Source: a virus. From it: DNA of 19,219 nt. This document shows positions 1,046-19,219 of this stretch, piece after piece (position 1 is the stretch's first letter; the number at the start of each line of letters is the position of its first letter). Below the pieces are notes generated by a model. It saw only the letters and a list, made by a program, of their open reading frames with translations. It was not told the DNA's origin and ran no database searches. The stretch lies in the UHGV virus genome UHGV-0267650; one strand, given 5' to 3'. The translations under genes and the position numbers were made by a program.

Positions 1046-2749
1046 TCAGGCAATAATGTTCTGGTACTTGCTCCGGGTTTCTCCGGCTTTCGTGGCGGTC
1101 TGCGTGAATGATGCCGCATTGGTCGGTGTGCCGACGCTGGGGTGTGAGTGACTGGCGCACTGCCTTGCCAGTTCTGCCAGTAAATCAATGGTATCCAGCA
1201 TCATGGTCAGGGCGTTGATACTCTCGCTGCCAATATGGACAGTTGCCCCCATGACCTGCTGACCGCCAGTGGCCACCGATTTACGTAATGCGGCAATCTT
1301 TTCTGTCAGGGTTCCCCCCACATCAACATCCACGGTGCCGGCTACTTTCGTGGATTGTTTGCCAGTTATATCGGCTTCGTCATTCCCCTCAATGCTGGCC
1401 AGCCTGTTACCTTTCACCGCCTGGCTATAATCACCGGCGCTTACCTGCTGGATGGCTCCGGCCAGCAGTGTGGCGGTTCCCAGTACCGTAGTTTTATCCG
1501 TGGCTTTCACCGTGGTTTCACGGCTGACCAGTTCGCGCTGTTCTGTATCGGCTTTTACAGTTCGCACCATTGATGTTTCGCTGATGGTCTGATCGGTCTG
1601 CCTTACCCAGTCCCCCGCCTGAGTCACTCTCTGGGATACTTCTTCCCGCTGCTGCTGTAATTGCTCACCGGGTTTAACGTCCGGCAGACTGGTGCCATCC
1701 GGTAGCGTCTGCCTGATAAAGGGTTTATCCGGTCTGCCTCCTGTGAATGCGACCTCAACCAGCGTCCCTTCTGGCGGGAACTGAAACATACCTGAATCAT
1801 TCCCGGCCATTGGTACCGGCAGCGGCACCGCTGAATAAACAGGCGTCTGATTGTCCGGGTTTCCGTCTGCGTCAAGCAGCTGAACGTCCACGGCGTAACG
1901 TGGACGGAAGGGATCGGCAAAGTTACCGCTTTTTACCGGCTCTGAATGCGCCACGACTCTGGCCATCTTTGGCAAATGAAGCCCGGATGCCAGTTCCGGG
2001 TAATGGCTTTCAATCTGCCGTTGCGCCGGTGTTTTCTGCAAAGGTTTACCCGTTGCGCGGTTTCTCGGCGTCCATGTGATCGCCATCGTGTCATTCGTCA
2101 GGTGAACTTTAGTCACGCGTTCACCGTTCATCTCCACCCCTGGCCGCATAGTCTGGATCACTGGTAATGTCACAGAGTTACCGCCAGCAGCCCCCTGGCT
2201 GAACTCTGACGGGATTTCTACGGGACGACCGGCAAATAATGACTTTTCTGCGCCGCCGACGTAAAGCGAACCATCAGGCAACTGGTACCAGATGTAATCC
2301 AGGATACTGAACGCCCTGCCCAGATTGTTCAGCAACTGATAACCTGTACCGTTATGGGTAAAATGTGGGATGGGGGTATCGCTGTACTGTGCATCAGGCA
2401 CACTGACCGTGATCCCGCTGTTTTCTTCCAGCCAGCCCGCAATTTCACGCAAAGTCGGGTGTTGAAACGAACATGGCCACATCCTTTCAAACACACCTAC
2501 CAGCTCACGAATGAACAGACGCTGAAAACCTTTTTCCGCGGGCTGCGATCGCTCCACATACCCCGTAAACCAGCGCAAAAGCAGATCGGTATACCCCACA
2601 TCCAGCCGCACCAGTTTTCCGGTGTAATCGGTTGTTGTCTCTGCGGTGATGAAGCCCCGGCCGCAGTTGTTCAGCTCCAGTACCAGGCTGGCGTCCGCCA
2701 TGTGAACTTCATCCGTTGAAAGGTAAAGGCGTTTTACTGGTTTCATCAT
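1046..2749 (-). CDS. Baseplate central spike protein: gpV-like OB-fold and apex in the C-terminal half, with a ~300-aa N-terminal extension of unknown identity (possibly hub-like)
   Basis: 567-aa ORF, last gene of the operon. Residues ~321-345 PPEGTLVEVAFTGGRPDKPFI resemble the OB-fold motif of P2 gpV as I recall it (PSVGEQVLILAVGGELDTAFV). Near the C-terminus ASHSHPSVGTPT resembles the gpV apex motif HTHKHPGDSGGTTGSP. Its start codon overlaps the stop of the upstream ORF. Confidence 0.6.
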   Translation of the reverse strand: MMKPVKRLYLSTDEVHMADASLVLELNNCGRGFITAETTTDYTGKLVRLDVGYTDLLLRWFTGYVERSQPAEKGFQRLFIRELVGVFERMWPCSFQHPTLREIAGWLEENSGITVSVPDAQYSDTPIPHFTHNGTGYQLLNNLGRAFSILDYIWYQLPDGSLYVGGAEKSLFAGRPVEIPSEFSQGAAGGNSVTLPVIQTMRPGVEMNGERVTKVHLTNDTMAITWTPRNRATGKPLQKTPAQRQIESHYPELASGLHLPKMARVVAHSEPVKSGNFADPFRPRYAVDVQLLDADGNPDNQTPVYSAVPLPVPMAGNDSGMFQFPPEGTLVEVAFTGGRPDKPFIRQTLPDGTSLPDVKPGEQLQQQREEVSQRVTQAGDWVRQTDQTISETSMVRTVKADTEQRELVSRETTVKATDKTTVLGTATLLAGAIQQVSAGDYSQAVKGNRLASIEGNDEADITGKQSTKVAGTVDVDVGGTLTEKIAALRKSVATGGQQVMGATVHIGSESINALTMMLDTIDLLAELARQCASHSHPSVGTPTNAASFTQTATKAGETRSKYQNIIA

Positions 2750-3294
2750 TAACCCAAAGCATCATTGACGGGCTTCAGCACCTTGCGTTCAAACCACGTC
2801 AGTTTTTCTTCATCCTCTCCGGCAGACTGGCCACCGGACTGTCCCGCACTACCGGCAGTTTGTTTTTTTGCGGTCGTCTTACCTGTTGCCCTGGCCTCTC
2901 GCTTTTCCTGCACGCTGATATGTTCCGCCAGTGTGAATGTCACCAGCCAGGACATTTTCCCGTCCTGCTGGGGTGCATCCAGCATCCCGCTGAACGTTGC
3001 TTCACGAAAATTAACAGCACGGGCAACTTCATGCGCCACGCGGTACTTCTGACGATTACCACTGGCATCGGTAGCACTGGCCAGCTCAAAAATACGCTTG
3101 AGTATTTCAGGCTGTTTAAAAGGTATTTCCCCGCTGATCCGCAGTTCCTTTCCCTTTGCTCCCTGCTCTGATTTTGTTGTGGCGCTGGTCTGGCCGGACT
3201 GATCTTTATCCTGAAACTGCTGTGAAACAGTCACCCGCATGTTTTTCAGCTGGATGGCCTCGCCATTAAGCGCCAGTGTCGGGATCGAAGTCAT
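2749..3294 (-). CDS. Hypothetical protein within the tail operon (181 aa), function unknown
   Basis: Long - strand ORF packed between neighbours; overlaps the upstream ORF by 29 nt and shares position 2749 with the start of the spike gene. Contains a low-complexity Q/S/T/G/K-rich segment. No family recognised. Confidence 0.45.
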   Translation of the reverse strand: MTSIPTLALNGEAIQLKNMRVTVSQQFQDKDQSGQTSATTKSEQGAKGKELRISGEIPFKQPEILKRIFELASATDASGNRQKYRVAHEVARAVNFREATFSGMLDAPQQDGKMSWLVTFTLAEHISVQEKREARATGKTTAKKQTAGSAGQSGGQSAGEDEEKLTWFERKVLKPVNDALG

Positions 3295-3991
3295 GAATCA
3301 TTCCCTTTATTCCATCAAGATTATCGCCAACCAGCATCATTGCAGCGGTGTACACGGCAGACTGCTGCGGAATGTCCTCCACCAGTTCCAGTAACGTGGT
3401 GCCGGTGTCTCCGCTGGCAGTAAAAACCCACGCTCTGGCACTCTTCCCCTGTAAATCATTCAGGCCGCTGGCCACATCACTGATAAGCTGGTCACGCATC
3501 TGCGTGAACTCGCCCAGCTGTTTTTTCAGCCCTTCGATATCAAACCCGGCACCCGCCGCCTTTTGTGCCTGGCTGATTGCCGCAGCAGATAAAGCTGCCC
3601 TGCTGGTTGGTACAGACAACGGAATGGGCGCAGGTAACGCAGCGGCGGTTTTCGCAGGGATCTGCATCTTTTCAATAGCCAGCGCTGCGGCGGATTGCGC
3701 CAGCCGTTTGACCTGTGTGAATGCCGGGGCGGGGAAAATCCCGACCAGGTTATTCAGGCTGGCCATAAAGTTTTCCTGTGTCTGTCCGGTGACCATCATA
3801 ATCACCACGTCCACATTCCCCCCTGTTCCGGCCAGGCGTTCAGCAAGATAGCGAACAGCATTAACCGGGCTGAGATATGCCCCGTTTGCTGTCTGCTGTC
3901 CCAGCCCATAAATCCACGGATGCGCAGGGACGATCGAACAGTTCAGCGCAGCAACAGAATCCGTGAAGGCCAGACGTGCTTCACGCCACAT
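3266..3991 (-). CDS. Hypothetical protein within the tail operon (~241 aa), function unknown; apparently two domains joined by an Ala/Pro-rich linker
   Basis: The ORF track gives 3266..4027, but the ATG at 3991 is preceded by GGAGG at about -9, so I prefer it as the start. It overlaps the Tfa stop by 11 nt. Ala/Pro-rich linker AAALAIEKMQIPAKTAAALPAPIPLSVPTSRAALSAAAIS. No family recognised. Confidence 0.45.
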   Translation of the reverse strand: MWREARLAFTDSVAALNCSIVPAHPWIYGLGQQTANGAYLSPVNAVRYLAERLAGTGGNVDVVIMMVTGQTQENFMASLNNLVGIFPAPAFTQVKRLAQSAAALAIEKMQIPAKTAAALPAPIPLSVPTSRAALSAAAISQAQKAAGAGFDIEGLKKQLGEFTQMRDQLISDVASGLNDLQGKSARAWVFTASGDTGTTLLELVEDIPQQSAVYTAAMMLVGDNLDGIKGMIHDFDPDTGA

Positions 3992-4568
3992 TTCCAGGCA
4001 CCTCCGGCCACACAATTTCCGGCGCATCTTCCGGTTGAATACGATTCAGTAAAACGCGGAATTTTTTCCATGCAGTAAGCAGTAGCGCTTCTTCTTCGGT
4101 CGCCATGTCAAAATCAACGGCATCCTGCAATGTGGCAATGGCATCATTGGCCTGTTTAAGCAGTCTTTTCTTTTCGGCGTCTGCCTCGCTGACTAATGCA
4201 ATTCGCATGGCCTCCGCATCATCCATCCACGCCTTACCATTCCATTTTTGCCAGGCATTAGCCGGTGCTGACGTGGTTGTCCCTTCCGGGTAAGCGCCTG
4301 GCTCGGTGATCACCAGTTCATTACCGTTTTCTGTATCAAACACCACCTCACCACGGTGATCCTCACGGGAAATCCATCTTTGCTTCTCTGAATCAAAAAT
4401 CGCCACAAATCCCGCTTTGATTGCCGGTGGCTTTATCGTGGTGCAGTTAGCTGGCAGTCCGGTATGCGCAGGAATAAAAGCATCACCCGAACCAATAAAT
4501 TCATTCGTATCGGAACGCAGGTTATAAACAGTAACTGTTTGATCGGTTTCACTCATTTTAAAAGTCAT
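3981..4568 (-). CDS. Tail fiber assembly protein (Tfa / P2 gpG-like chaperone)
   Basis: 195-aa ORF immediately downstream of the tail fiber gene, sharing position 4568 with the fiber stop. Size, position and general sequence character fit the tail-fibre assembly family; called from memory, not from a search. Confidence 0.6.
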   Translation of the reverse strand: MTFKMSETDQTVTVYNLRSDTNEFIGSGDAFIPAHTGLPANCTTIKPPAIKAGFVAIFDSEKQRWISREDHRGEVVFDTENGNELVITEPGAYPEGTTTSAPANAWQKWNGKAWMDDAEAMRIALVSEADAEKKRLLKQANDAIATLQDAVDFDMATEEEALLLTAWKKFRVLLNRIQPEDAPEIVWPEVPGNVA

Positions 4569-6142
4569 TATGCGAGTCTCACTATGTAGTTAAATGCAAT
4601 ATTCTTAACGGTCGTTTCTGCGTTGCCCGACGCGACGACGGTAATGGTGTGACTGTGTGCGCCAATGGCTACGGTATGAGAGTGAGCGCCAATACCTACG
4701 GAGTGATTATGTGCGCCAATGGCTACGGTGTGCGCGTGGTTTCCCGCTGAACTGGTATTTACGGTATATGCAGTACCACTTCCGCCTGCTGATCTGGCTA
4801 TTCCTGAACCATCAGTGCCTCGCGTGGTAAAACCGTGTGCGTGCGCCCCTGTCGTATTTGTCGTTTTTGTACCGTGGTCAAACGTACTCGCCGTTTTAGT
4901 ACCGTAATCAAATGAGGATGTTGATTTCGTTCCCAGATCGGTACTTGATGCACTGGCAGTGTGAGCATGGGATTTATTGCCATCATCTTCACAGGACAAT
5001 ACTGCGCGGCCATCTGGTTTTCCTTTGATTGTCTGGCGGCGCATGTCAGTAATAACACCCGATGGATACGCAGCAGCCAGCAAAGGATATGCCGCTGTAT
5101 TAAAAGACTGCCCTTGCATAATTGCCCATCCAGTAGGTGGGATATCTGTTGGCCAGGGAAGCGGCACACCAACCGGCAGAACATCACTACGACTTAAAAC
5201 GGCCAGTTCACCCAGATCCAGGCTTTTTCTTGCCTTTACCTTGTCGTTAACATCAGCAAGGTTTGCATCCTTACGCAAAAAATCGATGCTGGCCTGCTGT
5301 TCTCCCAGGTTACCTTTTGGCCGTAAATCCGTGATGTTGCCATCCACATCAATGCTGGCCACCGCAAACACGTAATGCTGAACCCCGTTCTGAACGTAAT
5401 CAGCAAGATTTGCTGCCACCGTGATTTTGCTCTGCACATTCCAGACACTAGTCAGTGTCCCTGTCCAGCACACATCCAGCCAGACTTTTACCGGCTTTGT
5501 CGTCACCGTAATATTCTGGTTCGCTGCCAGTGACGCACGAAGTCCAGCCACATAACCCGTGCCTTTCGTGACAAAAAACTGATTGCCGGTTTTGGCTACC
5601 AGATACCCGTCACCAAAAAACGCCGCCGCGCCATAAATATCCATATTTTCCAGGCGCTGGCGCTCATCCATTCCGGCCATACGCGCGGTGAAATCAATCT
5701 GCCAGGTTTCAGCAGGCGTACTAATCCCGGTTTCCGTCTGTGCGCCGTTGTACTCCATCAGAAACGAGCGGGTCAGCACGTTTCCCTGTTGCCCTTCTTT
5801 TGTTTTCAGTTTCTGCTGTGATGGTGCATGGACAATCATTGCCAGCGTACCGCTGGCCTTATTGAGCAGACCGATCCAGTTAAAACTGAAATCACCCACA
5901 TCTGCGCCCAGCACTACGGAATAAACCACCCCATTTTCATTCACCACACCCGTGCGGGTAACAGCCTGCCGGTGAACAATCTGTGCTGTCGGGGGTAACA
6001 CTTCATTACGGTCAACAGGTGTATCCGGGTTTAAATCCGGCACACTGGCAAATACAAATTCGTCCAGTAGTACCGGTTCACCCGTAGCGCCCTGTTGCGC
6101 TTTCCAGTTTTCAAATGCCAGTGTGATGGCTGTCTGTGACAT
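4568..6142 (-). CDS. Tail fiber protein (P2 gpH / Mu gpS-like N-terminus; His-rich repeat C-terminal tip)
   Basis: 524-aa ORF with AAGGAG about 8 nt upstream of the ATG. The N-terminal ~100 aa resemble the conserved N-terminal domain of P2 H / Mu S fibers. The C-terminus carries tandem 11-aa repeats rich in H-x-H ([32 protein letters not shown]), and the gene is followed by a Tfa gene. Confidence 0.75.
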
Positions 6143-6152
6143 AAAAAACTCC

Positions 6153-6758
6153 TTACAAACTCGCGCTGAATGCTGCGCTGCGGGCTTCCGTCCCTGCTAA
6201 CATCGCCGGATAAACCACATATTCCCCCTGATCCCATCCGGCTCTGATGGCCAGTTTTTCCGATGTGATCACCTCAAACTGATAGCGGCGGCATGTTCGT
6301 CCGTACTGGCGGATTATCTGGATCAGCAGTTGCGTGTTGTCTGCAATCTGGCTGTCTGTAACCCGAACCAGAATCACATCCCAGTCGATATCCGGTTGCC
6401 GTTCTAACAGCTCCACATAACCAATTCCCAGCCGTTCAAAGATATTGATAAACCCCTCTACTGAACCGGCATCCCGCGCATTCACGAAGGCAAAAGCCAC
6501 GCGTTTGCGGAACAGGGTCAACGGTTCACCATCAAAGCGGGTAATATCCCGGTCATAAGCCAGCAGGTTCAGTAATGCCGGTGTACACGTCAGCGGATCA
6601 AACTGATTCACTGGCCAGATAACCCAGCCGTAAACCTCAGCCCAGAACCGCCGCGCCGTTTTCAGCAACTTGGCCGGCTCCCCTTTGTTCATCCAGGAAG
6701 GAAGCACCATCCCGGCCAGCTTTTTCAGGAACTCACTCATTTTCAATAACCACCGCAA
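6153..6758 (-). CDS. Baseplate/tail protein, P2 gpI-like (Mu gp48-like)
   Basis: 201-aa ORF directly downstream of the J-like gene, in the position of P2 gene I. The real start may be the internal Met (MSEFLKK) at 6740. Weak resemblance to P2 gpI as recalled. Confidence 0.55.
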
Positions 6759-7917
6759 GCGATTTCAGACGCGGCACACTCAGTTCACTGGTGATGTCGC
6801 CCAGCGAAAAAGACAGTGATTCCGTCTGCGCAAAGGTTTTATGAATTTCCCGCCCCAGTTGAGAAAAGGAAAACCGCGAATATGGCCACGTCTTCCTGAC
6901 GTCATAATCAGCATTCTCACGAAAGGCACAGCGGATCATGTTTTCCACCCCGTCTTTCAGGGTTTTCCTGTCCTCATCGCTGAAATTGGCCAGATTTTTG
7001 ACATAAACCGTGACGGACAGATCATGAAGCGTTTCCGGCATGGGATAGCACTGCATATCATCACCGTGGCCGTGATGCCCCTGCGTGTTGATATAGTCAT
7101 TGACGGCATCCACGAACGGCGAAGAAGCCACCCCGCTGTCCAGCAACAGATACGCGTTGGCGGTACCGGGTCCCCTCGGCGCTTCATGTTCAAAGAAAAT
7201 CCGGTCAATACTCAGCCCTGCAACGCCGGCAATCATTGACCGGTAAACGGCGTCAGTGTGGTAATTCCCCACCAGATTGAACTGATTGCGGCAGCGTTCG
7301 CGCAGCTCATCATCACTTTCTTCATCCGCGCCCGGTACGGTCAGCCAGTTTTCTTCGCTGGTCACGTGGCTGATACCGTCAACGGCAACCGGCAGAATGC
7401 GGTAATATCCCGGCGCAAGGTTATATGCGCCCCCGGTGCCGGTGGCTTTCACCGGCAGTAATGCGCTGGCCATACCGGAAGCGATCACCACATCCTCACT
7501 GGTGGCCAGCTCATACACGCGGCCGTTAATGCGCTCTGTCTGGATAATCGTCCCGGCTTTCACCGTCACCACAGCTTTTGCATCTTCTTTGAAGAAGCGG
7601 ATCACACCCTGTGCAGCGCTCGCCGGTTTTGCCGTGACGTTCACCGCCCACGCCAGCAGACGCAACATGCTCCCGCTGGCTGTGGCCACAAACATATTGG
7701 CCAGCACGGTGAATACCAGAACGTCTTTCAGCCACATCACTGGTGCGGTCACAATGGCGGTGATTAACCGCCAGAACGGTGACATGCGGGACGTATTGGT
7801 GATAATCCCCTCGTCAGCTGCAATCGCATTAAAGCGATCGCGAACCTCAGATTCCGTCACCGGCATCCCGCTGGCTTTCACCACTTCTTCAAAATCAACC
7901 TGGGGCTTTTCCGTCAT
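6733..7917 (-). CDS. Baseplate J-like protein (P2 gpJ / Mu gp47 family)
   Basis: The ORF track gives 6733..7971 (412 aa). I prefer the ATG at 7917, which overlaps the upstream gene's TGA in an ATGA junction, giving ~394 aa. Size and position (after the gp46/W-like gene, before the I-like gene and fiber) match baseplate J. Confidence 0.65.
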   Translation of the reverse strand: MTEKPQVDFEEVVKASGMPVTESEVRDRFNAIAADEGIITNTSRMSPFWRLITAIVTAPVMWLKDVLVFTVLANMFVATASGSMLRLLAWAVNVTAKPASAAQGVIRFFKEDAKAVVTVKAGTIIQTERINGRVYELATSEDVVIASGMASALLPVKATGTGGAYNLAPGYYRILPVAVDGISHVTSEENWLTVPGADEESDDELRERCRNQFNLVGNYHTDAVYRSMIAGVAGLSIDRIFFEHEAPRGPGTANAYLLLDSGVASSPFVDAVNDYINTQGHHGHGDDMQCYPMPETLHDLSVTVYVKNLANFSDEDRKTLKDGVENMIRCAFRENADYDVRKTWPYSRFSFSQLGREIHKTFAQTESLSFSLGDITSELSVPRLKSLAVVIENE

Positions 7918-12233: not shown

Positions 12234-13357
12234 GCGCTGGCCTCCAGACTTGCATCCAGTAACAGACTGATGGTGATCTGCAGCGGTACTTCATACGTAC
12301 GCACCACAATGTAAATATCCACCGCCTTTTTGTTCTTCCAGACAATGGTCACGTCACCGTCCTGTGGAGGTTTCACCTCGCCCGGAAATGACACGCCGTT
12401 AATGCTGGCCGCAGTGGACATTTCCCGCAGCGGACGGGCAAACAGCGTCTGGTGTGCGGCAATACTGCCCGGTGTACTGTTAAGTGAGCGATCGGCAATC
12501 TTACCGATGGCCAGCAGACGGACGCGGCGTGCTGCCTTATCCACAATACGCAGCGTCTCAATGGACTGGTAATCGCCGCCCTCAACGTCCAGCGTGCGCC
12601 CGTCAGCCCAGTAAAAACCGTCATAGTCCGGATACCACATCGGCACGCTGTAGCGCTGTGCCTCCAGCGCCTGAAGGGTCGCCAGTTCCAGCGTTTCGCC
12701 GGCACCGTCTTTTGGCAGTTCATCGCTTCCCAGACTCAGCAACGCGCCTGTTTTCACCCGCGCCGGACTGTCGGCAATAGTGACAGCACGATTGCAGAGA
12801 CGACCAGCCAGCACGCCCGGTTCATTCCCCCAGAGACGGGGTACCAGCTGTACCGCTTTTTCCGCGATACCTTCCTGAAGGGTGGACAGACGCACCAGAT
12901 AATCCGCCTGGGCTTCATCCTGCTGCATCCCCTGAACCGCCAGAATGAACCACACCCAGCGCCCGTATTTAGCAATCAGTTCAGATCGCAGCGTTGCCGC
13001 CTGGTTAATCTGCGCTTTCGCGGCCACATCATCAGACAGCACCACACCCTCCACCGAACAGGAAACCTGTGCGGCCTTAACGGCATCCACCCATGCCCCC
13101 GGCTCACTGTCTGCGGCCAGCACATGAACAAATCCCCACCAGTTCTGGCCGGCGTTCGCCAGTGCGGCCAGCACATCACTTTTTAACGGGCTGTCACCCT
13201 CGCCCAGCAGCGCATCAAAATCACTCTGTGCGTTAACTGCCAGCGTCTTACCTACATTTTTGGTTCCCGTGCCGATAAACAGCAGCGTGCGCTCCACTTC
13301 CGTGGTTTCACCCAGCAGCTGATTTACCTGGTTTACGGTCACAATTGGCCAGGTCAT
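12230..13357 (-). CDS. Contractile tail sheath protein (P2 gpFI-like in size and position)
   Basis: 375-aa ORF preceded by GGGGGAG, followed by the tube-sized gene. Called from size and gene order, not from a recognised motif. Confidence 0.5.
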   Translation of the reverse strand: MTWPIVTVNQVNQLLGETTEVERTLLFIGTGTKNVGKTLAVNAQSDFDALLGEGDSPLKSDVLAALANAGQNWWGFVHVLAADSEPGAWVDAVKAAQVSCSVEGVVLSDDVAAKAQINQAATLRSELIAKYGRWVWFILAVQGMQQDEAQADYLVRLSTLQEGIAEKAVQLVPRLWGNEPGVLAGRLCNRAVTIADSPARVKTGALLSLGSDELPKDGAGETLELATLQALEAQRYSVPMWYPDYDGFYWADGRTLDVEGGDYQSIETLRIVDKAARRVRLLAIGKIADRSLNSTPGSIAAHQTLFARPLREMSTAASINGVSFPGEVKPPQDGDVTIVWKNKKAVDIYIVVRTYEVPLQITISLLLDASLEASA

Positions 13358-14058
13358 GCTCTCCCCCTGATATCCTGCGCGTTAACATCCCAGCCGAACC
13401 CGATAGCCTGCAGCTGTCGCGCCAGCGCTTTGTTAAAATCATCCTGACCTATCCCCAGAAACGCCCTGGCAGGTAAATCAATCTGCCAGGACGTTTTGAC
13501 CGGTTTGTCCTCCAGTATCCGGATAAGCAAACCTGCCTGTCTGGCGGTCATCCTTTCCTGTATTTCCTTATAACCGGGCTTACGCCAGCGCTTACCGCGC
13601 CTGACTTTATACCCGGCCTTGCGCAGACGTTTCGCCTGTCGAAGTGATGCAGGCTTGTCCCCCTGCTCACGGCCTTCCACCTGCTTACGGTTGACGGTCA
13701 CGCTCATGCCGTTCTGCTGGACATACCCCACCACGCCGGCAGGCAGATTTCCCTTCGCATTCCGGTAATGACCACCGGCCAGATACAGCCTGACCGACTC
13801 CGTTTCAGGCATTTCCCGGATGCGGATCAGTTTCGGCATATTGCGCAACATTTTGCCTTTACGCCGGGTCTGCCGCGCCTGCCACTTATCACCCTCCGGC
13901 GACTGCTGATTGCGCACATTACGCTTTGCTGCGGCTTCCACGCCGTATTTCGCCATACGCCACAACAGCCGGCGACGTTTCGCAGAAGGTAAATCCAGCT
14001 TTTTCAGCGCGTCCTGGAGCTGGCGGAACTGTTCCTTGTTCAGCTCGCCATTTATCAT
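13354..14058 (-). CDS. Virion morphogenesis / tail completion protein (P2 gpS / Mu gpG family-like)
   Basis: 234-aa highly basic ORF. The segment SPEGDKWQARQTRRKGKMLR resembles the conserved region of gpS-family proteins as I recall it. Lies between the head-completion and sheath genes. Confidence 0.5.
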   Translation of the reverse strand: MINGELNKEQFRQLQDALKKLDLPSAKRRRLLWRMAKYGVEAAAKRNVRNQQSPEGDKWQARQTRRKGKMLRNMPKLIRIREMPETESVRLYLAGGHYRNAKGNLPAGVVGYVQQNGMSVTVNRKQVEGREQGDKPASLRQAKRLRKAGYKVRRGKRWRKPGYKEIQERMTARQAGLLIRILEDKPVKTSWQIDLPARAFLGIGQDDFNKALARQLQAIGFGWDVNAQDIRGRA

Positions 14059-14537
14059 TCCTGCCCCTCACTGACCGGGATCACCGTCACCTCATCAGCC
14101 GTCCAGACTTCGGGGTTAGCCAGCTTCCAGCGCTGACCATCAAACGGGATCTGGCCTTTGGGATCGGGAACCAGATTCAGTTCCTCCACCATTGGCAGCG
14201 TCACCACCATGATGGCGGTTTCCTGGTCGATGGTTTCGATATCAAACTCCGGCAGCTCGGCGTCAATGCCGGTTTCCTCAAAGAGCGTGCGCTCATCCTG
14301 GCAAAGCCACGACATAAACAAAGCCATCAGGATTTTGGGATCGTACTCGCGGTAGGGATAACGCTCCCACGTCAGCACGGCGTTATAACGGATGATGGCA
14401 ATACGGTACTGCCCCAGCCCGGTGTCCCGCTGTGCCGGGATGAACGCGATCTCGTCCATCTGGCTGTCAAATCCCTGCATTGCCCGTCTGGGCATGTTGG
14501 CAATGAGAAAATCGGTTAATTCCGTTAACTGGCTCAT
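14055..14537 (-). CDS. Tail completion protein, gpR-like (tentative)
   Basis: 160-aa acidic ORF between the L-like and S-like genes with start/stop overlaps on both sides. The call rests on position only. Confidence 0.35.
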   Translation of the reverse strand: MSQLTELTDFLIANMPRRAMQGFDSQMDEIAFIPAQRDTGLGQYRIAIIRYNAVLTWERYPYREYDPKILMALFMSWLCQDERTLFEETGIDAELPEFDIETIDQETAIMVVTLPMVEELNLVPDPKGQIPFDGQRWKLANPEVWTADEVTVIPVSEGQE

Positions 14538-14986
14538 ATCATGGCCACCGTAATGCGTTTCAGCCCTTTGATGCGGCGTACTGCCAGTGTGGACTCTGCA
14601 ATCAGGCTGGAGCGGGTTTCGTCACTTTCCTGCCCCGGATGGCTCTCACGGCGACCAACAGAGGCAAACTCGCCCATCAAATCAGCTTTGGCACGTGCAT
14701 ATACCGCTTTGCGATAACGGGCGCACAACAGATTTTCGCCGTCAATTTCCACGCCCGGAACGTGCGCCGCGCGCTCATGGCCAACGCTGCGATACCTTGC
14801 CGCCACACTGACCAGATCATCATTGATTTCGCCGGCTGCAGTCAGCAGCGCCTGGCGGATGGTGGCCGCATCAATATCGGCCGGAATGGTGCGCTGGGAC
14901 TGAAAATCTTTCACGCTCAGGTCAGGCCAGAAGCCATCATTCGTCAGAGTGGCATCGTCAAAATCAATTGAAGTTCCGCTGAACAT
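14534..14986 (-). CDS. L: Head completion/stabilisation protein (P2 gpL-like)
   Basis: The ORF track extends to a GTG at 15025. The ATG at 14986 has a good RBS (GGAGAAACAGG then ATG) and gives ~150 aa. Position after the small terminase gene and sequence character fit gpL. Confidence 0.55.
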   Translation of the reverse strand: MFSGTSIDFDDATLTNDGFWPDLSVKDFQSQRTIPADIDAATIRQALLTAAGEINDDLVSVAARYRSVGHERAAHVPGVEIDGENLLCARYRKAVYARAKADLMGEFASVGRRESHPGQESDETRSSLIAESTLAVRRIKGLKRITVAMI

Positions 14987-15000
14987 CCTGTTTCTCCGGA

Positions 15001-15070
15001 AAAAAGCGGGCTGACCGGTTTCCACGGGCGATACGCTTATGCGATCCCCTCCACCGCGCCCGCTTTCGGG
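15001..15070 (-). terminator. Terminator/attenuator-like structured element with a U6 tract upstream of the L gene
   Basis: On the - strand transcript AAAGCGGGC can pair with GCCCGCUUUUUU, enclosing ~41 nt of internally pairing sequence (GGGCG...CGCCC), and is followed by six U residues. It lies in the 54-nt gap between the 63-aa ORF and the L RBS. Confidence 0.3.
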
Positions 15071-15079: not shown

Positions 15080-15271
15080 TTACTCGCCGCGTTTTGCGGC
15101 CTGAATCTCACCTTCTTCAAACCACGCATCAGATGCGCGACCGTCAGCAGTCTGATAATGGATCAGATACTGATTGCAGCTGTTGGTGTACTCCGCACGG
15201 GCTTTGATATGCCCCTCTTCGCCGCTAATGGAAACTTCAACAACCTGGCCTAACTCATGCTTAAACGACAT
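15080..15271 (-). CDS. Small hypothetical protein (63 aa) inserted between the small terminase and head completion genes
   Basis: ORF with SD-like GGGAG about 8 nt upstream of the ATG, beginning 1 nt after the M-like stop. P2 has no gene at this position as I recall. Faint resemblance to small YodC/DUF2158-type proteins, from memory only. Confidence 0.4.
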   Translation of the reverse strand: MSFKHELGQVVEVSISGEEGHIKARAEYTNSCNQYLIHYQTADGRASDAWFEEGEIQAAKRGE

Positions 15272-15272
15272 A

Positions 15273-15986
15273 TCAAACTCCCGTAGACTCTTTTTTCAGC
15301 GCCCGCAGACGCGCAGCAATACGCTGCAACATCGTGCCAACACCACATTTAGGGTCGAATCCCTTCGCCTGCTCCAGCAGTTCCTTAGCCCGGAGCAATA
15401 CTTCCCTGTCTTCCGTTGCCGCTGCGCGTGGCTCTCCGTTTTCATCGCGTAGCAGGTGCAGACCGGCAAACTTCAGGTATTTGGCCTTAATGACCTCATA
15501 CACATTCCAGTGCTGCGTCACGTTTTCCAGCGTACGGCCAAAATACGGCTCCACATCATGCCCCTGTACGGCTTCCGCTTCCGCCCAGGACAACACCGTA
15601 TCCGCCACAAACACCGGGAACGCGCTGCCGAACGCGGCCGGGGTTTCCTGCCCCCGCTGGATTGCCACATCCGCCCAGTCCAGCGCCTGGTCAAACTGGC
15701 CTGTATCAAACAGCCAGACGACACACCAGGCAAAAACAGGATTCTGTTGCACACTGTCACCTTCCAGCCAGGATTGCGCGGTTGGCATCCAGCGCGGTAA
15801 CAGCACATCACGCTTAAATTCCATTCGCTCAGCGCGGCTTTCAATCGCTGCAGCTGCGGCGACATCTTTCTCCAGCGCGACAATCTGAATATGCAGGCTG
15901 GTTTCCGTGTCCAGAGACTGCTGCTGTCGCAGTAACCGCTCCGCTTCAATTCGTGCGCTGTGGCGCTGTGCCGGTGACAGTTGCAT
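15273..15986 (-). CDS. M: Terminase small (endonuclease) subunit, P2 gpM-like
   Basis: 237-aa ORF with N-terminal SPAQRH and internal LHLLRDENGE, matching P2 gpM as recalled (SPAQRH..., ...LFLRDGGD). RBS AAGGGGGA. Located between the capsid and head-completion genes. Confidence 0.7.
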   Translation of the reverse strand: MQLSPAQRHSARIEAERLLRQQQSLDTETSLHIQIVALEKDVAAAAAIESRAERMEFKRDVLLPRWMPTAQSWLEGDSVQQNPVFAWCVVWLFDTGQFDQALDWADVAIQRGQETPAAFGSAFPVFVADTVLSWAEAEAVQGHDVEPYFGRTLENVTQHWNVYEVIKAKYLKFAGLHLLRDENGEPRAAATEDREVLLRAKELLEQAKGFDPKCGVGTMLQRIAARLRALKKESTGV

Positions 15987-15996: not shown

Positions 15997-17025
15997 TTAC
16001 TCGCCTGCCGGAGGCGCGACAGGTGCCCCGATAGCTACCGCACTTTCATCAAACGCGGCGTACAGTTCCGGATACTCAACCGCATAACCTTCGTTACGCA
16101 GGTATTTGTTTTCGTACTGTTTACGGTCTTCCACAAACTCCGCTTTACGCTGACGCGTGCCGCGCTGGGTGTAGATGTGCAGGTTTGGCAGTGTCGTAAC
16201 AATCATGCGTTTGCCTGGCATAAACGGCGGTACGTAAGCCGTGCGGCCAGCGATGCTGTCAGACAGCAGTTGCGCAGCGATCTTCTCCGTGGGTTTGTCT
16301 GCTTTCTGATACAGACGGAACGACTCCGCCGCGACCAGATCAGCGCCGACAAGAACCACCAGGCGTGGATCATTACGGTACTGTGCCGGGATTTTGGCGT
16401 TGATAAGGTCGGAGGCCATTGCATCCAGCGACACGTAATCGCCTTTCCCGTCACCGTCAAGCACCACCGCATCAGTGATGATCTGCTGGCCGTCCTTCCA
16501 CTCTTTGACGATCTGATGCCAGCCCTTGTTCACATCCTCGCCGTTCGGGTTGGTTTCCGCGTTCGTGGTTTCGGCTACTTTGGTACCGTTAAAGCCGATA
16601 CGCAGCATATCCAGCGCAAACGCCTGATTAGTGAACTCCTGAACACGCTGGAAAAACTCGTTTTCATCGCCGGCGTTCGCCCAGACAGAAAGCAACTGCC
16701 AGGTGAGTGCGGCGCATGAGTCGGTCTCGACCAGACTGTAATCATTACCACTCACGCCCACTTTCTTACGGAAGCGGCCATCCAGCACACGCCCGGTATA
16801 CAGGCCAGAGCTGCCAACAGGAACCACCTGCCCCTGCAGCTGATCGACATCGGCAACGGTGATCAGATTCAGGAAATCAGACTGCTCCATCAGCGCATTG
16901 CGCAGCTGAGTTTCTTTGGGGTCGGTGAGTGCAAACCAGCGTTCGCTGTCAGTCGCCCCGTAGGATTCACGCAGCCCGGTGTGATACTGAAGCAGAAACT
17001 CACGGGCTTTCGCATTTAATTGCAT
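15997..17025 (-). CDS. N: Major capsid protein, P2 gpN-like
   Basis: 342-aa ORF with RBS AAGGA. DYVSLDA, DPRLVVLVG and NLHIYT correspond to P2 gpN DYASLDA, DPDLVVIVG and NLSIYY (recalled). Confidence 0.85.
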   Translation of the reverse strand: MQLNAKAREFLLQYHTGLRESYGATDSERWFALTDPKETQLRNALMEQSDFLNLITVADVDQLQGQVVPVGSSGLYTGRVLDGRFRKKVGVSGNDYSLVETDSCAALTWQLLSVWANAGDENEFFQRVQEFTNQAFALDMLRIGFNGTKVAETTNAETNPNGEDVNKGWHQIVKEWKDGQQIITDAVVLDGDGKGDYVSLDAMASDLINAKIPAQYRNDPRLVVLVGADLVAAESFRLYQKADKPTEKIAAQLLSDSIAGRTAYVPPFMPGKRMIVTTLPNLHIYTQRGTRQRKAEFVEDRKQYENKYLRNEGYAVEYPELYAAFDESAVAIGAPVAPPAGE

Positions 17026-17059: not shown

Positions 17060-17899
17060 TTACAGGAAATTGAAGCCTTTTTTGCCCTTGCTGAATTTCT
17101 TGTCCGGCAGTTGAGTAACTTTGTTATTCAGCTTGCTGAAGTTTTTCACCAGCTCCGGCAGGTTCCCCACCAGACGCGCAAAATCTTCGGTGTCCACCAC
17201 TTCCTTCACGGTGTCCACATCGTCCTGCACATCAGATACCGCCTCTTCCGCCTCACCCAGTCGGGTTTCAATAGCAGATACGCGCTTATCAATGGCATCC
17301 AGCGCTTCAGCCAGCGCCTGTAAGGCATCAGACTGTGAAGGTTCCTGCTCCGGGGTCTGCTCCGGTTCTTCGATACTGAAAAAATGGCGCCAGCCCTTTT
17401 TCGCTGTCTTTGACATTCCCTTTTCCTTTTTAAATTCCCTGACTTCATCAAACGCCAGCGGCTTGTATGGTCCGATGCGTTTTCCCCTGGTGCGGCTGAA
17501 ACGTAACCGTGTGGTGCTTACCCCGGCCGGACTGTCAGTAATGGCCAGTCCCTCAAGATAGGTTTTCCCGGTATTTCTGAAATTCCCGTCTGGTGTAAAC
17601 TCCGGTGATAAAAATAAAAGCTGCCCCTTCGCATTCGCCTGAAGCAATGCAATAGCCGGACAGAGTCGGGCATATAAACGAAGAATACCTTCATCATCCC
17701 GCTCTGCTTTTACTTCCAGCACTTCCCCCATATTCCCGAAATTGCGGGTATGTTCCGGCCATAACAGCGCGGTATATAAGTTGGGGTCATATAATTCAGC
17801 GGCATCAAGTAACCATTGTTCTTCAATGGTTCTTTTATCGACCGTTTCACCCGCAGTGGCGATACAAATCCAGTTTGTTGCCAGTTGTGAACCTGACAT
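17060..17899 (-). CDS. O: Capsid scaffolding protein, P2 gpO-like
   Basis: The ORF track extends to 17959, which is a GTG. The ATG at 17899 has GGAGG upstream, and from there the protein aligns with the P2 gpO N-terminus (...YDPNLYTALLWPEH versus ...FDPRVYGCRINLEH). C-terminal acidic helical region. Confidence 0.8.
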   Translation of the reverse strand: MSGSQLATNWICIATAGETVDKRTIEEQWLLDAAELYDPNLYTALLWPEHTRNFGNMGEVLEVKAERDDEGILRLYARLCPAIALLQANAKGQLLFLSPEFTPDGNFRNTGKTYLEGLAITDSPAGVSTTRLRFSRTRGKRIGPYKPLAFDEVREFKKEKGMSKTAKKGWRHFFSIEEPEQTPEQEPSQSDALQALAEALDAIDKRVSAIETRLGEAEEAVSDVQDDVDTVKEVVDTEDFARLVGNLPELVKNFSKLNNKVTQLPDKKFSKGKKGFNFL

Positions 17900-18041
17900 A
17901 TTGCCTCCATTCCTGCTGCGGTTTTCAGTATCGCCAATAAAATTAACCGCCGCATTCACTTCATTTCGGATATAGGCTATTAGCCGAACACATCAGAAAT
18001 AAAGCGGGATTTAATATACAAACGCCCGTGCATAATGTGCG
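17900..18041. promoter_or_regulatory. Divergent late promoter region between the O-like and P-like genes, with a central imperfect dyad TTCGG-N14-CCGAA at 17964..17987
   Basis: 142-bp AT-rich intergenic region between divergently oriented head genes, as in P2 where the late promoters lie here. -10-like hexamers GATACT (- strand) and TAATAT (+ strand) flank the dyad. Confidence 0.4.
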
Positions 18042-19219
18042 CATGGCTAAATATTCAGAAGAATTAAAAGGCGTTGCGCGGGCGCTTTATTTAAAACGCT
18101 ATACCACGCAGGAAATTGCCAGCGAACTTAATCTGCCTAACAGACGCATTGTCTATTACTGGGCGGAGAAATATTGCTGGGCGGAATTACTCAGTCATGA
18201 ATCCACCGAAGATGCATTAAACCGTCGCATTCAGTCACTGACATTACGTGAAGGGAAATCGGAGCTGGAGCTGCGGGAGCTGGACAATCTCGTTTCTCAC
18301 CTGGTGAAACTACGTGCACAACACAATAAGCATCAGGAAAAGCTGGCAGAAATTAAACACAGTGAAAATGATGCGCCGACGCGTCAGTCCGGTGGCGACG
18401 AAAAGCCCCGGAAACGTGGCAAGTACAAAAAGAACGACATCAGCGGACTGACACAGGAAGATTTTGACCGGTTCGCACTGGAGCACCTTTTCGGCTATCA
18501 GAAACACCTTCGCGCTAATCTTCATCAGCAAATCAGGAACATCCTGAAAAGCCGCCAGATTGGTGCAACCTGGTATTTCTCAATAGAAGCCTTTGAGAAT
18601 GCGGTCATGACAGGCGATCCGCAAATCTTCCTGTCCGCATCAAAGGCTCAGGCGGAAGTATTCCGCAGCTATATCGTCAATATTGCGGAGCAGTATTTCG
18701 GCGTGGAGCTGACGGGAAACCCCATCCGCCTCTCCAACGGCGCGGAGCTGCGATTCCTGTCCACCAACAAGAACACCGCCCAGTCATACAGCGGCCATCT
18801 GTACTGCGATGAATATTTCTGGGTACCCAACTTTGCAAAATTAAACGAAGTGGCCAGCGCGATGGCCACACACGACAAATGGCGAACCACCTACTTTTCC
18901 ACCCCCAGCAGCAAAACGCACCAAGCGTACCCGTTCTGGACTGGTGAAGAATGGAAGCGCGGTGACAAAAAACGCGCGCGCGTACAATTTCCCACGGAGA
19001 AGGAGCTGCGCGACGGTGGACGGTTATGTCCTGATGGACAGTGGCGCTACATCATCACGATGGAAGACGCGATCGCAGGCGGGTTTAATCTCGCCAGCAT
19101 CGGGAAGCTGCGCAACCGCTACAACCGCGACACTTTCAACATGCTGTATATGTGCGTGTTCGTGGACAGCAAGGACAGCGTATTTTCGTTCTCTCACGTG
19201 GAACGCTGCTGTGTAGATC
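18042..19219 (+). CDS. P: Terminase large (ATPase) subunit, P2 gpP-like; 3' end truncated by the window edge
   Basis: Open frame from the ATG at 18042 to the end of the window, 392 codons. SRQIGATWYFS, YFSTPSSK, LCPDGQWRYIITMEDAIAGG and YMCVFVDSKDSVFSF correspond to P2 gpP SRQIGATFYFA, YFSTPST, LCADGQWRQIVTIEDALAGG and FMCEFVDDKASVFPF (recalled). Confidence 0.85.

What the first reader, a model, noticed from the sequence alone, without database searches (positions are those of the whole stretch)
1046..19219. Mosaic late region: P2-order head genes with a rearranged contractile tail module
The head genes follow P2 order and match P2 motifs (P diverging from O-N-M-L), but the downstream order is L, R/S-like, sheath, tube, lysis, chaperone, tape measure, gp46/W-like, J-like, I-like, fiber, Tfa, two unknowns, spike. 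P2 order as I recall is L, X, lysis, R, S, V, W, J, I, H, G, FI, FII, E, T, U, D. The sheath/tube and tape-measure blocks are transposed relative to the baseplate/fiber block and the spike is relocated to the end. This implies either an undescribed lineage of P2-related phages or recombination between tail modules.
Basis: partly seen in the sequence, partly recalled or inferred. Interest (0 to 1): 0.5.

Follow-up and report, generated by a model that had tools for sequence, protein, structure and literature searches.

The report
Ordinary HP1-type phage late region
This stretch is the virion-assembly and lysis gene block of a temperate phage from the HP1 branch of the P2 family; it is about 95% identical to an already classified coliphage, and its "rearranged" tail gene order is the normal order for that branch.

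Summary
Its proposed significance is not supported. The window is 95.4% identical over 99% of its length to Escherichia phage ESSI2_ev239 (Peduoviridae, Evevirus) and about 94% identical to prophages in 12 complete E. coli genomes.

Its order is: P diverging from O-N-M-L, then R, S, sheath, tube, lysis cassette, chaperone, tape measure, DUF2590, J, I, fibre, Tfa, two small proteins, and a hub-spike. This matches Haemophilus phage HP1 orf16-orf35 gene for gene. It also matches Vibrio phage K139 and Cronobacter phage ESSI-2, and 225 of 227 related viral contigs.

Tail proteins are 28-62% identical to HP1 proteins. BLAST finds no similarity to P2 or Mu tail proteins. Two Pfam hits are named after HP1 (Orf24 tube, ORF34). 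The literature already splits Peduoviridae into HP1 and P2 subgroups by their tail modules.

Real but ordinary mosaicism exists within the HP1 group. The head-neck block, the lysis cassette and the fibre/Tfa genes have been exchanged among relatives.

The terminal "spike" is a VgrG-like fusion of a gpD-type hub and a gpV-type spike. This too is already published for HP1.

The parts
18043..19219 (+). Terminase large subunit (P2 gpP / HP1 orf16 homologue). N-terminal 392 aa; runs off the window.
   Evidence: Open frame from the ATG at 18043. Identity is 92% to ev239, 78% to ESSI-2, 54% to HP1 and K139, 45% to P2, and none to Mu.
17900..18042 (.). Divergent O/P intergenic region; presumed late promoters.
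   Evidence: Sequence read. No TGT-N12-ACA (P2 Ogr-type) site is present here. The promoter role is inferred from position only, by analogy with K139 P16/P17 and P2 pO/pP.
17060..17899 (-). Capsid scaffold/protease (gpO). The ORF can extend to a GTG at 17959.
   Evidence: Pfam Phage_GPO, E=1e-34. The ATG at 17899 is preceded by GGAGG. Identity is 36% to HP1 orf17 and 29% to P2 O.
15997..17025 (-). Major capsid protein (gpN).
   Evidence: Pfam Phage_cap_P2, E=1e-97. Identity is 72% to ESSI-2, 51% to K139, 35% to HP1 and 31% to P2.
15273..15986 (-). Terminase small subunit (gpM).
   Evidence: Pfam Phage_term_smal, E=6e-38. Identity is 39% to HP1 and 27% to P2.
15080..15271 (-). 63-aa accessory ORF of unknown function between M and L.
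   Evidence: PHROG 8618, unknown function; no Pfam family. Present in only 14 of the first 80 related loci.
14534..15025 (-). Head completion / head-tail adaptor (gpL).
   Evidence: Pfam Phage_GPL, E=2e-45. hhalign to the P2-group L profile gives 99% probability.
14055..14537 (-). Tail terminator/completion protein (gpR-like; HP1 orf21).
   Evidence: Pfam P2_Phage_GpR, E=9e-24. PHROG 65, tail terminator. hhalign to P2 R gives 86%.
13354..14058 (-). Tail completion protein with a gpS-like N-terminal domain and a C-terminal extension of about 115 aa (HP1 orf22 position).
   Evidence: Pfam Phage_tail_S on residues 11-74. PHROG 26. hhalign to P2 S gives 98% over residues 12-119.
12230..13357 (-). 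Contractile tail sheath (HP1 orf23 type, DUF2586).
   Evidence: Pfam DUF2586, E=2e-138. Identity is 56% to HP1 orf23 and 84% to the ESSI-2 sheath. The ESSI-2 sheath was modelled as a one-domain sheath in PMC9230969. No profile link to P2 FI.
11778..12233 (-). Tail tube (HP1 orf24 type).
   Evidence: Pfam Phage_HP1_Orf24, E=9e-63. Identity is 61% to HP1 orf24.
10639..11765 (-). Lysis cassette: holin 11469-11765, M15 peptidase endolysin 11131-11472, Rz/LysB-like spanin 10799-11131, and an overlapping Rz1/LysC-like lipoprotein within 10639-10938.
   Evidence: Pfam Phage_holin_3_2, Peptidase_M15_4 and LysC. PHROG 1152, Rz-like spanin. The holin is 43% identical to P2 Y, but there is no similarity to the HP1 or K139 lysis genes. 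A slot of about 1.1 kb between tube and chaperone occurs in 188 of 191 loci.
10204..10652 (-). Tail assembly chaperone (10395-10652) and its -1 frameshift extension (to 10204). The slippery A AAA AAC lies at 10404-10398.
   Evidence: Pfam Phage_TAC_10, E=9e-36. The -1 frame is open from the heptamer to a stop overlapping the tape-measure start, giving a 149-aa product. The heptamer is conserved in 196 of 197 loci.
8240..10207 (-). Tape measure protein (HP1 orf27).
   Evidence: Pfam PhageMin_Tail, E=2e-21. Identity is 32% to HP1 orf27 over full length.
7914..8243 (-). DUF2590 protein (HP1 orf28); probable gpW/gp25-type sheath initiator.
   Evidence: Pfam DUF2590, E=2e-48. Identity is 62% to HP1 orf28. 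The gpW equivalence comes from HHpred in the PMC10612066 supplement; my hhalign did not reproduce it.
6733..7917 (-). Baseplate wedge protein J (HP1 orf29).
   Evidence: Pfam Baseplate_J, E=4e-29. Identity is 51% to HP1. hhalign to P2 J gives 60%.
6153..6758 (-). Baseplate wedge protein, gpI-like (HP1 orf30); start uncertain.
   Evidence: Pfam Tail_P2_I, weak at E=8e-4. PHROG 1228, tail protein. Identity is 57% to HP1 orf30.
4568..6142 (-). Tail fibre (conserved N-terminal half, variable C-terminal half).
   Evidence: Pfam Phage_tail_fib and Collar. Only the N-terminal half or so aligns with HP1, K139 or ESSI-2.
3981..4568 (-). Tail fibre assembly protein (Tfa).
   Evidence: Pfam Caudo_TAP, E=2e-33. 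Identity is 39% to P2 G and 33% to Mu U. A 178-nt stretch is 93% identical to TfaE of Erwinia phage RF1.
3266..3991 (-). HP1 orf33-type protein of unknown role (the ORF can extend to 4027).
   Evidence: No Pfam or NCBIfam family. PHROG 1677, unknown. Identity is 28% to HP1 orf33. No relative in the PDB by profile search. Its homologue in phage ACA1 was detected in virions by mass spectrometry (PMC10612066 supplement).
2749..3294 (-). HP1 orf34-type baseplate protein (possibly gpU-like).
   Evidence: Pfam HP1_ORF34, E=4e-54. Identity is 40% to HP1 orf34. The gpU equivalence is marked 'uncertain' in the PMC10612066 supplement and was not seen in my hhalign.
1046..2749 (-). Baseplate hub fused to the central spike (HP1 orf35 type; VgrG-like, gpD + gpV).
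   Evidence: Identity is 41% to HP1 orf35 over full length. The T4 gp5 beta-helix matches at E=2e-10. A profile hits the VgrG1 OB domain and helix at E=3e-4. Phage_base_V is found in 12 of 17 family members. The top Foldseek hits of the AF2 model are full-length VgrG and CIS spikes (E=6e-10), followed by the Mu gp44 hub. The fusion is stated for HP1 in the PMC10612066 supplement.
1017..1035 (-). Terminator-like GC-rich hairpin 11 nt after the last tail gene.
   Evidence: An 8-bp stem followed by UUUAU; -15.4 kcal/mol, z=-3.7 against shuffles. K139 has an annotated terminator, T39, at the same place.

Best explanation
The window is the late region (virion morphogenesis plus lysis) of a temperate myovirus of the HP1 subgroup of Peduoviridae. 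It is a close relative of Escherichia phage ESSI2_ev239 (genus Evevirus), most likely resident as a prophage in an enterobacterium.

How it works, with shown and inferred steps marked:
- P (and Q, beyond the window) are transcribed rightwards. O through the hub-spike gene run leftwards as one tightly packed series of about 16.9 kb. It has no intergenic gap above about 55 nt other than the frameshift region, and it ends at a terminator-like hairpin. That this is a single late transcription unit is inferred from packing and from the K139 annotation.
- O, N, M, L and P build and fill a P2-type capsid.
- R- and S-like proteins complete the tail-head joint.
- An HP1-type one-domain sheath and tube polymerise on a baseplate. 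The baseplate is made from the DUF2590 sheath initiator, J/I wedges, the orf33/orf34-type proteins and a VgrG-like hub-spike fusion.
- A chaperone pair, made by a conserved -1 frameshift, together with the tape measure sets tail length.
- Fibre and Tfa set host range.
- A holin, M15 endolysin and spanin cassette embedded between tube and chaperone lyses the cell.

The difference in order from P2 is the canonical HP1-type arrangement. It reflects the ancient split of the two Peduoviridae tail modules and is not a rearrangement in this genome.
For: - Near-identity to known elements: 95.4% over 99% of the window to ev239, and about 94% to prophages in 12 E. coli genomes inserted between raiA and pheL.
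- Gene-for-gene collinearity with HP1 orf16-35, K139 orf16-39 and ESSI-2.
- Tail proteins are 28-62% identical to HP1, with no BLAST similarity to P2 or Mu tails.
- HP1-named Pfam families match the tube and orf34.
- 225 of 227 IMG/VR loci anchored on the J protein (43-100% identity) are collinear, and 176 of 181 have a P2-family capsid upstream.
- The lysis slot lies between tube and chaperone in 188 of 191 loci.
- The head proteins and P are also closer to HP1 and K139 than to P2.
- Published HP1/P2 subgroup split: PMC2771037. PMC10612066 Table 2 lists Seongnamvirus in the HP1 group.
- Hub-spike fusion.
- Frameshift.
- Terminator-like hairpin.
Against: - No experimental data were available for this element.
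- Transcription as one operon is inferred from gene packing and the K139 annotation.
- No P2-type TGT-N12-ACA activator site is present in the O/P intergenic region.
- The roles of the orf33/orf34-type proteins are unproven.
- The structure model of the hub-spike has low overall confidence (mean pLDDT 56, TM-scores 0.14-0.18).
- Evevirus itself is not listed in the published HP1-group table; only its relative Seongnamvirus is.
- Q, ogr and int lie outside the window, so completeness of the prophage was not checked for the window's own source.
Confidence: 0.93

Rival explanations
1. A new or undescribed P2-related lineage, created by a recent rearrangement or by acquisition of a foreign (for example Mu-like) tail module next to a P2 head module.
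For: The order differs from P2 in three blocks. The tail core proteins show no detectable BLAST or hhalign similarity to P2 FI, FII, W, U or E.
Against: - The same order occurs in HP1, K139, ESSI-2, ev239 and ev129, and in 225 of 227 viral contigs.
- The window is 95% identical to a classified phage.
- Only Tfa resembles Mu.
- The head genes are themselves HP1/K139-like and not P2-like.
- The split is already described in the literature.
Confidence: 0.02
2. The notable feature is recent module shuffling within the HP1 group. On this reading the window's head-neck block (O to S), lysis cassette and fibre/Tfa have different histories from its tail core, so the window is a patchwork of Evevirus, Quadragintavirus and Seongnamvirus-like segments.
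For: - Among loci with similar tails (sheath 84-97%, J 76-92%), the head-neck proteins fall into two classes: O at least 85%, or about 40-48% (one locus, L052, has O at 65%); N at least 79%, or about 67-75%.
- Nucleotide identity to ev129 (a different genus) is 95-98% over 1501-4500, 86-96% over 4501-8000, 73-86% over 8001-13500 and about 65-70% beyond 13500.
- Megablast to ev129, ev015 and ev040 stops at 13489, close to the S/sheath boundary.
- The holin resembles P2 Y, whereas HP1 and K139 carry unrelated lysis genes.
Against: This complements the main explanation and does not compete with it. Such patchwork is the norm for temperate phages and does not change gene order. No formal recombination test or gene phylogenies were run, so unequal rates could explain part of the gradient, though not the two-class split in the head genes.
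Confidence: 0.75
3. The region is a defective prophage remnant or a tailocin (headless tail) cluster, not part of a functional phage.
For: Three related viral contigs (L182, L183, L222) carry the HP1-type tail cluster without head genes and without the internal lysis cassette.
Against: The window has intact O, N, M, L and P genes with no frame disruptions. Its close relatives are deposited as complete phage genomes of about 29-31 kb, with portal, replication and integrase genes. The E. coli prophages likewise carry portal, ogr-like, primase, cox and int genes.
Confidence: 0.04

Closest known systems
Escherichia phage ESSI2_ev239 (Peduoviridae; Evevirus ev239; NC_049392)
   Same: 95.4% nucleotide identity over 99% of the window. 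The gene order is identical, and most proteins are 92-100% identical.
   Different: The P gene (about 82% nt; 92% aa) and the non-coding left end (79% nt) are more diverged. Window 1-92 has no counterpart. Identity sits at the border of the usual 95% species threshold.
Haemophilus phage HP1 (Hpunavirus HP1; NC_001697), prototype of the 'HP1-like viruses'
   Same: Exactly the same order from orf16 (P) to orf35, including the lysis genes between tube and chaperone and the fused hub-spike as the last gene. The tail proteins with a detectable HP1 match are 28-62% identical.
   Different: The lysis genes are unrelated: HP1 has a lysozyme-type Lys, the window an M15 peptidase and a P2 Y-like holin. 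The S-like protein, Tfa and the C-terminal half of the fibre do not align. Head proteins are only 35-39% identical.
Cronobacter phage ESSI-2 (Seongnamvirus) and Escherichia phages ESSI2_ev129/ev015/ev040 (ev129 is classified in Quadragintavirus)
   Same: Same order. The tail module is 70-89% identical at protein level (ESSI-2) or about 88% at nucleotide level (ev129 and relatives).
   Different: The head-neck block is much more diverged: O 46% and M 54% to ESSI-2, and about 65-70% nt to ev129. They are classified in other genera.
Vibrio phage K139 (Longwoodvirus)
   Same: Same order. One annotated rightward operon runs from P17 to terminator T39.
   Different: Tail proteins are 23-48% identical. 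K139 has extra small genes (orf23, orf26). Its capsid is closer to the window (51%) than HP1's is.
Enterobacteria phage P2 (Peduovirus P2)
   Same: Q/P diverge from O-N-M-L. Homologous L, R, S, J and I (hhalign 99, 86, 98, 60 and 28%). Also shared are the holin Y type, Tfa, and the chaperone frameshift principle (E/E').
   Different: P2's order is L-X-lysis-R-S | V-W-J-I-H-G | FI-FII-E-T-U-D in four late operons, with separate V and D genes. There is no detectable sequence or profile similarity for sheath, tube, chaperone, W or U.
Type VI secretion VgrG / contractile injection system central spikes
   Same: The 567-aa last gene has the VgrG layout: a gp27/gpD-like hub, then an OB domain, then a beta-helix.
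   Different: It is a phage virion protein within a tail operon. The similarity rests on structure and profiles only (10-15% identity), and the model's confidence is modest.

Membership tests
HP1 subgroup of Peduoviridae ('HP1-like viruses') | P2-family head/packaging genes, with P(Q) diverging from O-N-M-L. | tested here: met
   Pfam Phage_GPO, Phage_cap_P2, Phage_term_smal and Phage_GPL. The P fragment lies on the opposite strand. Q is outside the window.
HP1 subgroup of Peduoviridae ('HP1-like viruses') | Tail proteins match HP1-type and not P2-type proteins (the criterion used in PMC10612066 Table 2). | tested here: met
   Identity to HP1: sheath 56%, tube 61%, DUF2590 62%, J 51%, I 57%, orf34 40%, orf35 41%. 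There are no BLAST hits to the P2 counterparts. Pfam HP1_Orf24 and HP1_ORF34 match.
HP1 subgroup of Peduoviridae ('HP1-like viruses') | Gene order R-S-sheath-tube-lysis-chaperone-tape measure-orf28-J-I-fibre-Tfa-orf33-orf34-orf35. | tested here: met
   Collinear tblastn hits to HP1 and K139. 225 of 227 related loci are collinear.
HP1 subgroup of Peduoviridae ('HP1-like viruses') | gpD-like hub and gpV-like spike fused in one polypeptide. | tested here: met
   Sequence, profile and Foldseek evidence. Published for HP1. The model confidence is modest.
HP1 subgroup of Peduoviridae ('HP1-like viruses') | cos site next to attP/int and not downstream of the portal gene (PMC2771037). | not tested
   The region downstream of the last tail gene (1-1045) is non-coding and repeat-rich, which fits. 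No cos ends were mapped.
Species Evevirus ev239 | At least 95% nucleotide identity over the whole genome. | tested here: inconclusive
   95.4% over the 19.2-kb window, but 82% in P and 79% at the left end. The rest of the genome is not in the window.
P2-type (Peduovirus/P2 subgroup) late region | Order L-X-lysis-R-S, V-W-J-I-H-G, FI-FII-E-T-U-D, with P2-type FI/FII/U/D/V proteins. | tested here: not met
   The order differs. There is no BLAST or hhalign link for sheath, tube, chaperone, W or U.
P2-type (Peduovirus/P2 subgroup) late region | Ogr/Delta-dependent late promoters with TGT-N12-ACA upstream of the late operons. | tested here: not met
   The window has five matches, no more than chance, and none lies in the O/P intergenic region. 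An ogr/Delta-like gene does exist in relatives, outside the window.
Mu-like tail module | Homology to Mu L/M/gp42-48 tail and baseplate proteins. | tested here: not met
   Only Tfa matches Mu U (33%). No other tblastn hit.

The most novel reading that the evidence does not exclude
The HP1-type tail module may be an independent, ancient contractile-tail lineage. Its orf33- and orf34-type baseplate proteins have no counterpart among solved baseplate structures. It has also been captured outside P2-type phages as headless tail clusters: L182/L183 sit next to lambdoid replication genes, and L222 lies in tandem with a P2-type tail cluster. This would answer a question left open in PMC10612066, namely whether this module recombines into non-P2-like elements. 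It concerns the family in general and not this window in particular.
Probability: 0.3. Interest if true: 0.35.

Novelty: already known. Interest (0 to 1): 0.08.

Why it matters
It matters mainly as a negative result. A gene order that looks rearranged against P2 is the textbook arrangement of the other half of the family, so it should not be flagged as a novel mosaic.

Practical by-products:
- The HP1-type tail proteins are still labelled 'hypothetical' or 'DUF' in RefSeq, and NCBIfam has no models for them. A slot-by-slot annotation is given here.
- The small 'DUF6890' ORF is best read as the frameshift arm of the tail chaperone.
- The Evevirus/Quadragintavirus genus split coincides with an exchanged head-neck block joined to a shared tail module.

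Tried and rejected
- AlphaFold on the single hub-spike sequence gave an unusable model (pLDDT 36). With the only alignment I could assemble (47 sequences, all at least 75% identical, since the homologue search lists only the best 120 hits) it reached pLDDT 56. That model was used for Foldseek local matches only.
- A locus scan with P2 gpD alone returned only relatives at least 98% identical and added no profile depth. It was repeated with an alignment led by phiCTX.
- hhalign between HP1-type and P2-type profiles, without secondary structure, found no link for sheath, tube, chaperone, DUF2590, orf33 or orf34. It gave only a weak top hit of the orf35 N-terminus to gpD (6%, E about 0.006). The gpW and gpU equivalences therefore rest on the published HHpred table, not on my tests.
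- Profile searches of orf33- and orf34-type alignments against PDB sequences and Pfam found nothing credible.
- The P2 late-promoter motif TGT-N12-ACA occurs no more often than chance and is absent from the O/P intergenic region. The sigma-70 and terminator consensus scans were uninformative.
- No tRNA genes and no Rfam family were found.
- The original HP1 (PMC145952) and K139 (PMC135448) papers are not held in the library. Their GenBank annotations were used instead.
- The Mu-like tail idea was rejected, as was the tailocin reading for this window.

Full report
**What is in the window.** The long ORFs form one uninterrupted minus-strand series from about 17.9 kb down to 1046. A plus-strand ORF starts at 18043 and runs off the right end. 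There are no tRNA genes and no Rfam matches.

Pfam and PHROGs assign the series as follows:
- gpO scaffold/protease, P2-family capsid, small terminase, a 63-aa unknown ORF, and gpL head completion.
- A gpR-like terminator, and a protein with a gpS-like N-terminal domain.
- DUF2586 (sheath) and Phage_HP1_Orf24 (tube).
- Holin, M15 peptidase, and an Rz-like plus an overlapping LysC-like spanin.
- A Phage_TAC_10 chaperone and the tape measure.
- DUF2590, Baseplate_J and a weak Tail_P2_I match.
- Tail-collar fibre and Tfa.
- A protein without any family, and HP1_ORF34.
- A 567-aa protein with a gpV-type OB domain and gp5-type repeats.

**What it matches.** Megablast against phage records gives 95.4% identity over 99% of the window to Escherichia phage ESSI2_ev239, classified as Peduoviridae; Evevirus ev239. 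The tail two-thirds (1015-13489) matches ESSI2_ev129, ev015 and ev040 at about 88%; ev129 is classified in Quadragintavirus. Cronobacter phage ESSI-2 (Seongnamvirus) matches at about 77%.

In complete E. coli genomes, 55 of 5,426 carry a related prophage. Twelve of these cover the window at about 94%. One example is inserted between raiA and pheL, with portal, ogr/Delta-like, primase, cox and integrase genes beyond the window.

**The order is the HP1 order.** Two Pfam families are named after HP1, so I fetched HP1, K139, P2 and Mu. I compared all window proteins with them by tblastn.
- Hits to HP1 run collinearly from orf17 (O) to orf35. Hits to K139 run from orf17 to orf39.
- In both, the lysis genes sit between tube and chaperone, and the large 'baseplate protein' comes last.
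- Tail proteins that align with HP1 are 28-62% identical to it (sheath 56, tube 61, DUF2590 62, J 51, I 57, orf34 40, orf35 41). They are 23-48% identical to K139.
- Nothing in the tail core hits P2 or Mu. The exceptions are the holin (43% to P2 Y), Tfa (39% to P2 G, 33% to Mu U) and a marginal tape-measure hit.
- Head proteins are 35-51% identical to HP1/K139 and 27-31% to P2. The P fragment is 54% identical to HP1/K139 and 45% to P2.

So head and tail both belong to the HP1 branch.

**Breadth of the arrangement.** Three scans of IMG/VR, anchored on the HP1-type J protein, returned 227 distinct loci with 43-100% J identity.
- 225 are fully collinear with the window.
- 176 of the 181 loci with 10 kb upstream carry a P2-family capsid gene in the expected place.
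- 188 of 191 have a slot of about 1.1 kb between tube and chaperone, where the lysis cassette sits.

**Literature.**
- Lavigne et al. 2009 (PMC2771037) set up the 'HP1-like viruses' beside the 'P2-like viruses'. [quoted passage not shown]
- PMC10612066 divides all Peduoviridae genera into an HP1 group, which includes Seongnamvirus, and a P2 subgroup, on tail-protein similarity. It dates the tail split as far deeper than the head split. [quoted passage not shown]
- Its supplement equates HP1 orf28 with gpW. It equates orf34 with gpU, marked uncertain. It states that in HP1 the gpD and gpV homologues are fused.

**My own tests of deep homology.** I built profiles from about 40-70 non-redundant HP1-type sequences per slot. 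I compared them with P2-group profiles from P2, 186, phiCTX and RSA1, and later with 23-41 sequences per family from IMG/VR.
- hhalign recovered L (99%), S (98%), R (86%), J (60%) and I (28%).
- It did not recover sheath, tube, chaperone, DUF2590, orf33 or orf34.
- The N-terminus of orf35 gave gpD as top hit, but weakly (E about 0.006).

The 'transposed blocks' are therefore not shuffled copies of P2's genes. They are a separately evolved module with an equivalent parts list.

**The spike.**
- The 567-aa protein matches the T4 gp5 beta-helix at E=2e-10.
- Its family profile matches the VgrG1 OB-plus-helix region at E=3e-4.
- 12 of 17 diverse family members hit Phage_base_V, and one hits Phage_GPD.
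- A single-sequence AlphaFold model failed.
- A model built on a shallow alignment reached pLDDT 56, with residues 30-170 confident.
- Foldseek against the PDB ranked full-length VgrG, VgrS, PVC and AFP central spikes first (E=6e-10 to 2e-7). The Mu gp44, MuSo2 and P1 hubs followed.

With the published statement for HP1, the last gene is a hub-spike fusion. It occupies the position that gpD holds in P2. The spike is fused to the hub rather than relocated on its own.

**Mechanistic details.**
- Gene boundaries overlap or lie within 55 nt of one another throughout. The one exception is the 187 nt between chaperone and tape measure.
- That interval is spanned by the -1 frame, which opens at a slippery A AAA AAC at 10404-10398. 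The result is a 149-aa product ending at the tape-measure start. The heptamer is conserved in 196 of 197 loci.
- A strong hairpin followed by UUUAU lies 11 nt after the last gene, where K139 has its T39 terminator.
- A single late operon is thus likely, but it is inferred. No P2-type TGT-N12-ACA site lies in the O/P intergenic region.

**Mosaicism that is real.**
- Among the 80 closest loci, tails stay 75-97% identical to the window. The head-neck proteins O to S fall into two classes, for example O at least 85% or about 40-48% (one locus, L052, is intermediate at 65%).
- Against ev129, nucleotide identity is 95-98% over 1.5-4.5 kb. It falls stepwise to about 65-70% beyond 13.5 kb.
- The lysis cassette and the fibre C-terminus/Tfa also vary independently.

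This is ordinary modular exchange among related temperate phages. It does not alter gene order.

**Verdict.** The element is a known kind, and nearly a known species.

Noticed in passing
window 10204-10404 (minus strand): The small ORF annotated in relatives as a separate 'DUF6890'/hypothetical protein is the -1 frame continuation of the tail assembly chaperone. A slippery A AAA AAC sits at the chaperone's last codons, and the shifted frame ends at the tape-measure start (149-aa product). The heptamer is conserved in 196 of 197 related loci.
   Followed up: yes
window 116-390: An AT-rich non-coding stretch holds 7 exact and about 3 degenerate copies of TGTGAYGG(TTTT) in both orientations. The whole window has 10 exact copies against 1.7 expected, and no shuffle of 200 reached 10. 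It lies downstream of the tail operon, where HP1-type phages have cos. It may be a terminase or other protein-binding array; its function is unknown.
   Followed up: partly
window 1-95: The first 70 bases encode the start of a minus-strand gene (ATG at 70-68, MIDAFKDAFEKSLFDKWIGEGV...) that runs off the left end. This end has no counterpart in ev239 or in the E. coli prophages, which carry an acyltransferase moron there.
   Followed up: no
window 15080-15271: A 63-aa ORF (PHROG 8618, unknown function) is inserted between the small terminase and head-completion genes. It is absent from HP1, K139, P2 and ESSI-2 and present in only 14 of the 80 closest loci, which is moron-like behaviour.
   Followed up: partly
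window 10639-11765: The lysis cassette occupies the HP1-type slot but has different content: a P2 Y-like holin (43%), an M15 peptidase in place of the HP1/K139 lysozyme, and overlapping LysB/LysC-like spanins. Holin and Rz identities among close relatives swing from about 47% to 100%, independently of the flanking tail genes.
   Followed up: partly
window 13354-13500 (S-like/sheath junction): Similarity to the ESSI2_ev129/ev015/ev040 phages (ev129 classified in Quadragintavirus) ends here. Head-neck genes fall into two identity classes among loci with near-identical tails, which suggests a recombination junction that coincides with a genus boundary.
   Followed up: partly
window 3981-6142: The C-terminal half of the fibre and Tfa form the most variable tail segment. 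Tfa resembles P2 G and Mu U, and a 178-nt piece (4440-4617) is 93% identical to TfaE of Erwinia phage RF1. This is a host-range cassette exchanged across phage families.
   Followed up: no
L182 and L183 (IMGVR_UViG_2775507145_000004, IMGVR_UViG_2916703105_000005), about 1-21 kb: An HP1-type tail cluster (R-like protein through hub-spike) has no head genes upstream and no internal lysis cassette. It is preceded instead by Phg_2220_C, lambda-P-like replication and lysozyme genes. There is no match in the phage collection. It may be a tailocin or a hybrid with a lambdoid early region.
   Followed up: partly
L222 (IMGVR_UViG_3300048856_000141), 1-17 kb: The end of a P2-type tail cluster (tape measure, gpU, gpD) is followed by a PH-domain gene and then a headless HP1-type tail cluster, in an enterobacterial-like context. 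The two Peduoviridae tail types therefore lie in tandem.
   Followed up: partly
window 13354-14058: The gpS-like protein is 234 aa, against 150 aa in P2. Only the first 120 residues or so are gpS-like. The C-terminal 115 residues or so have no family, and HP1 orf22 at the same position does not align with it.
   Followed up: no
L001 (NC_049392) 1-127 versus window 5835-5960: The deposited ev239 record begins with a 127-nt copy of an internal tail-fibre segment (97.6% identity). This is probably an assembly or circularisation artefact in that record.
   Followed up: no
window 1046-13357 (tail genes): NCBIfam has no models for the HP1-type sheath, tube, DUF2590, I-like, orf33, orf34 or hub-spike proteins. 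RefSeq therefore labels most of them 'hypothetical' or 'DUF', which makes this common module look stranger than it is.
   Followed up: yes
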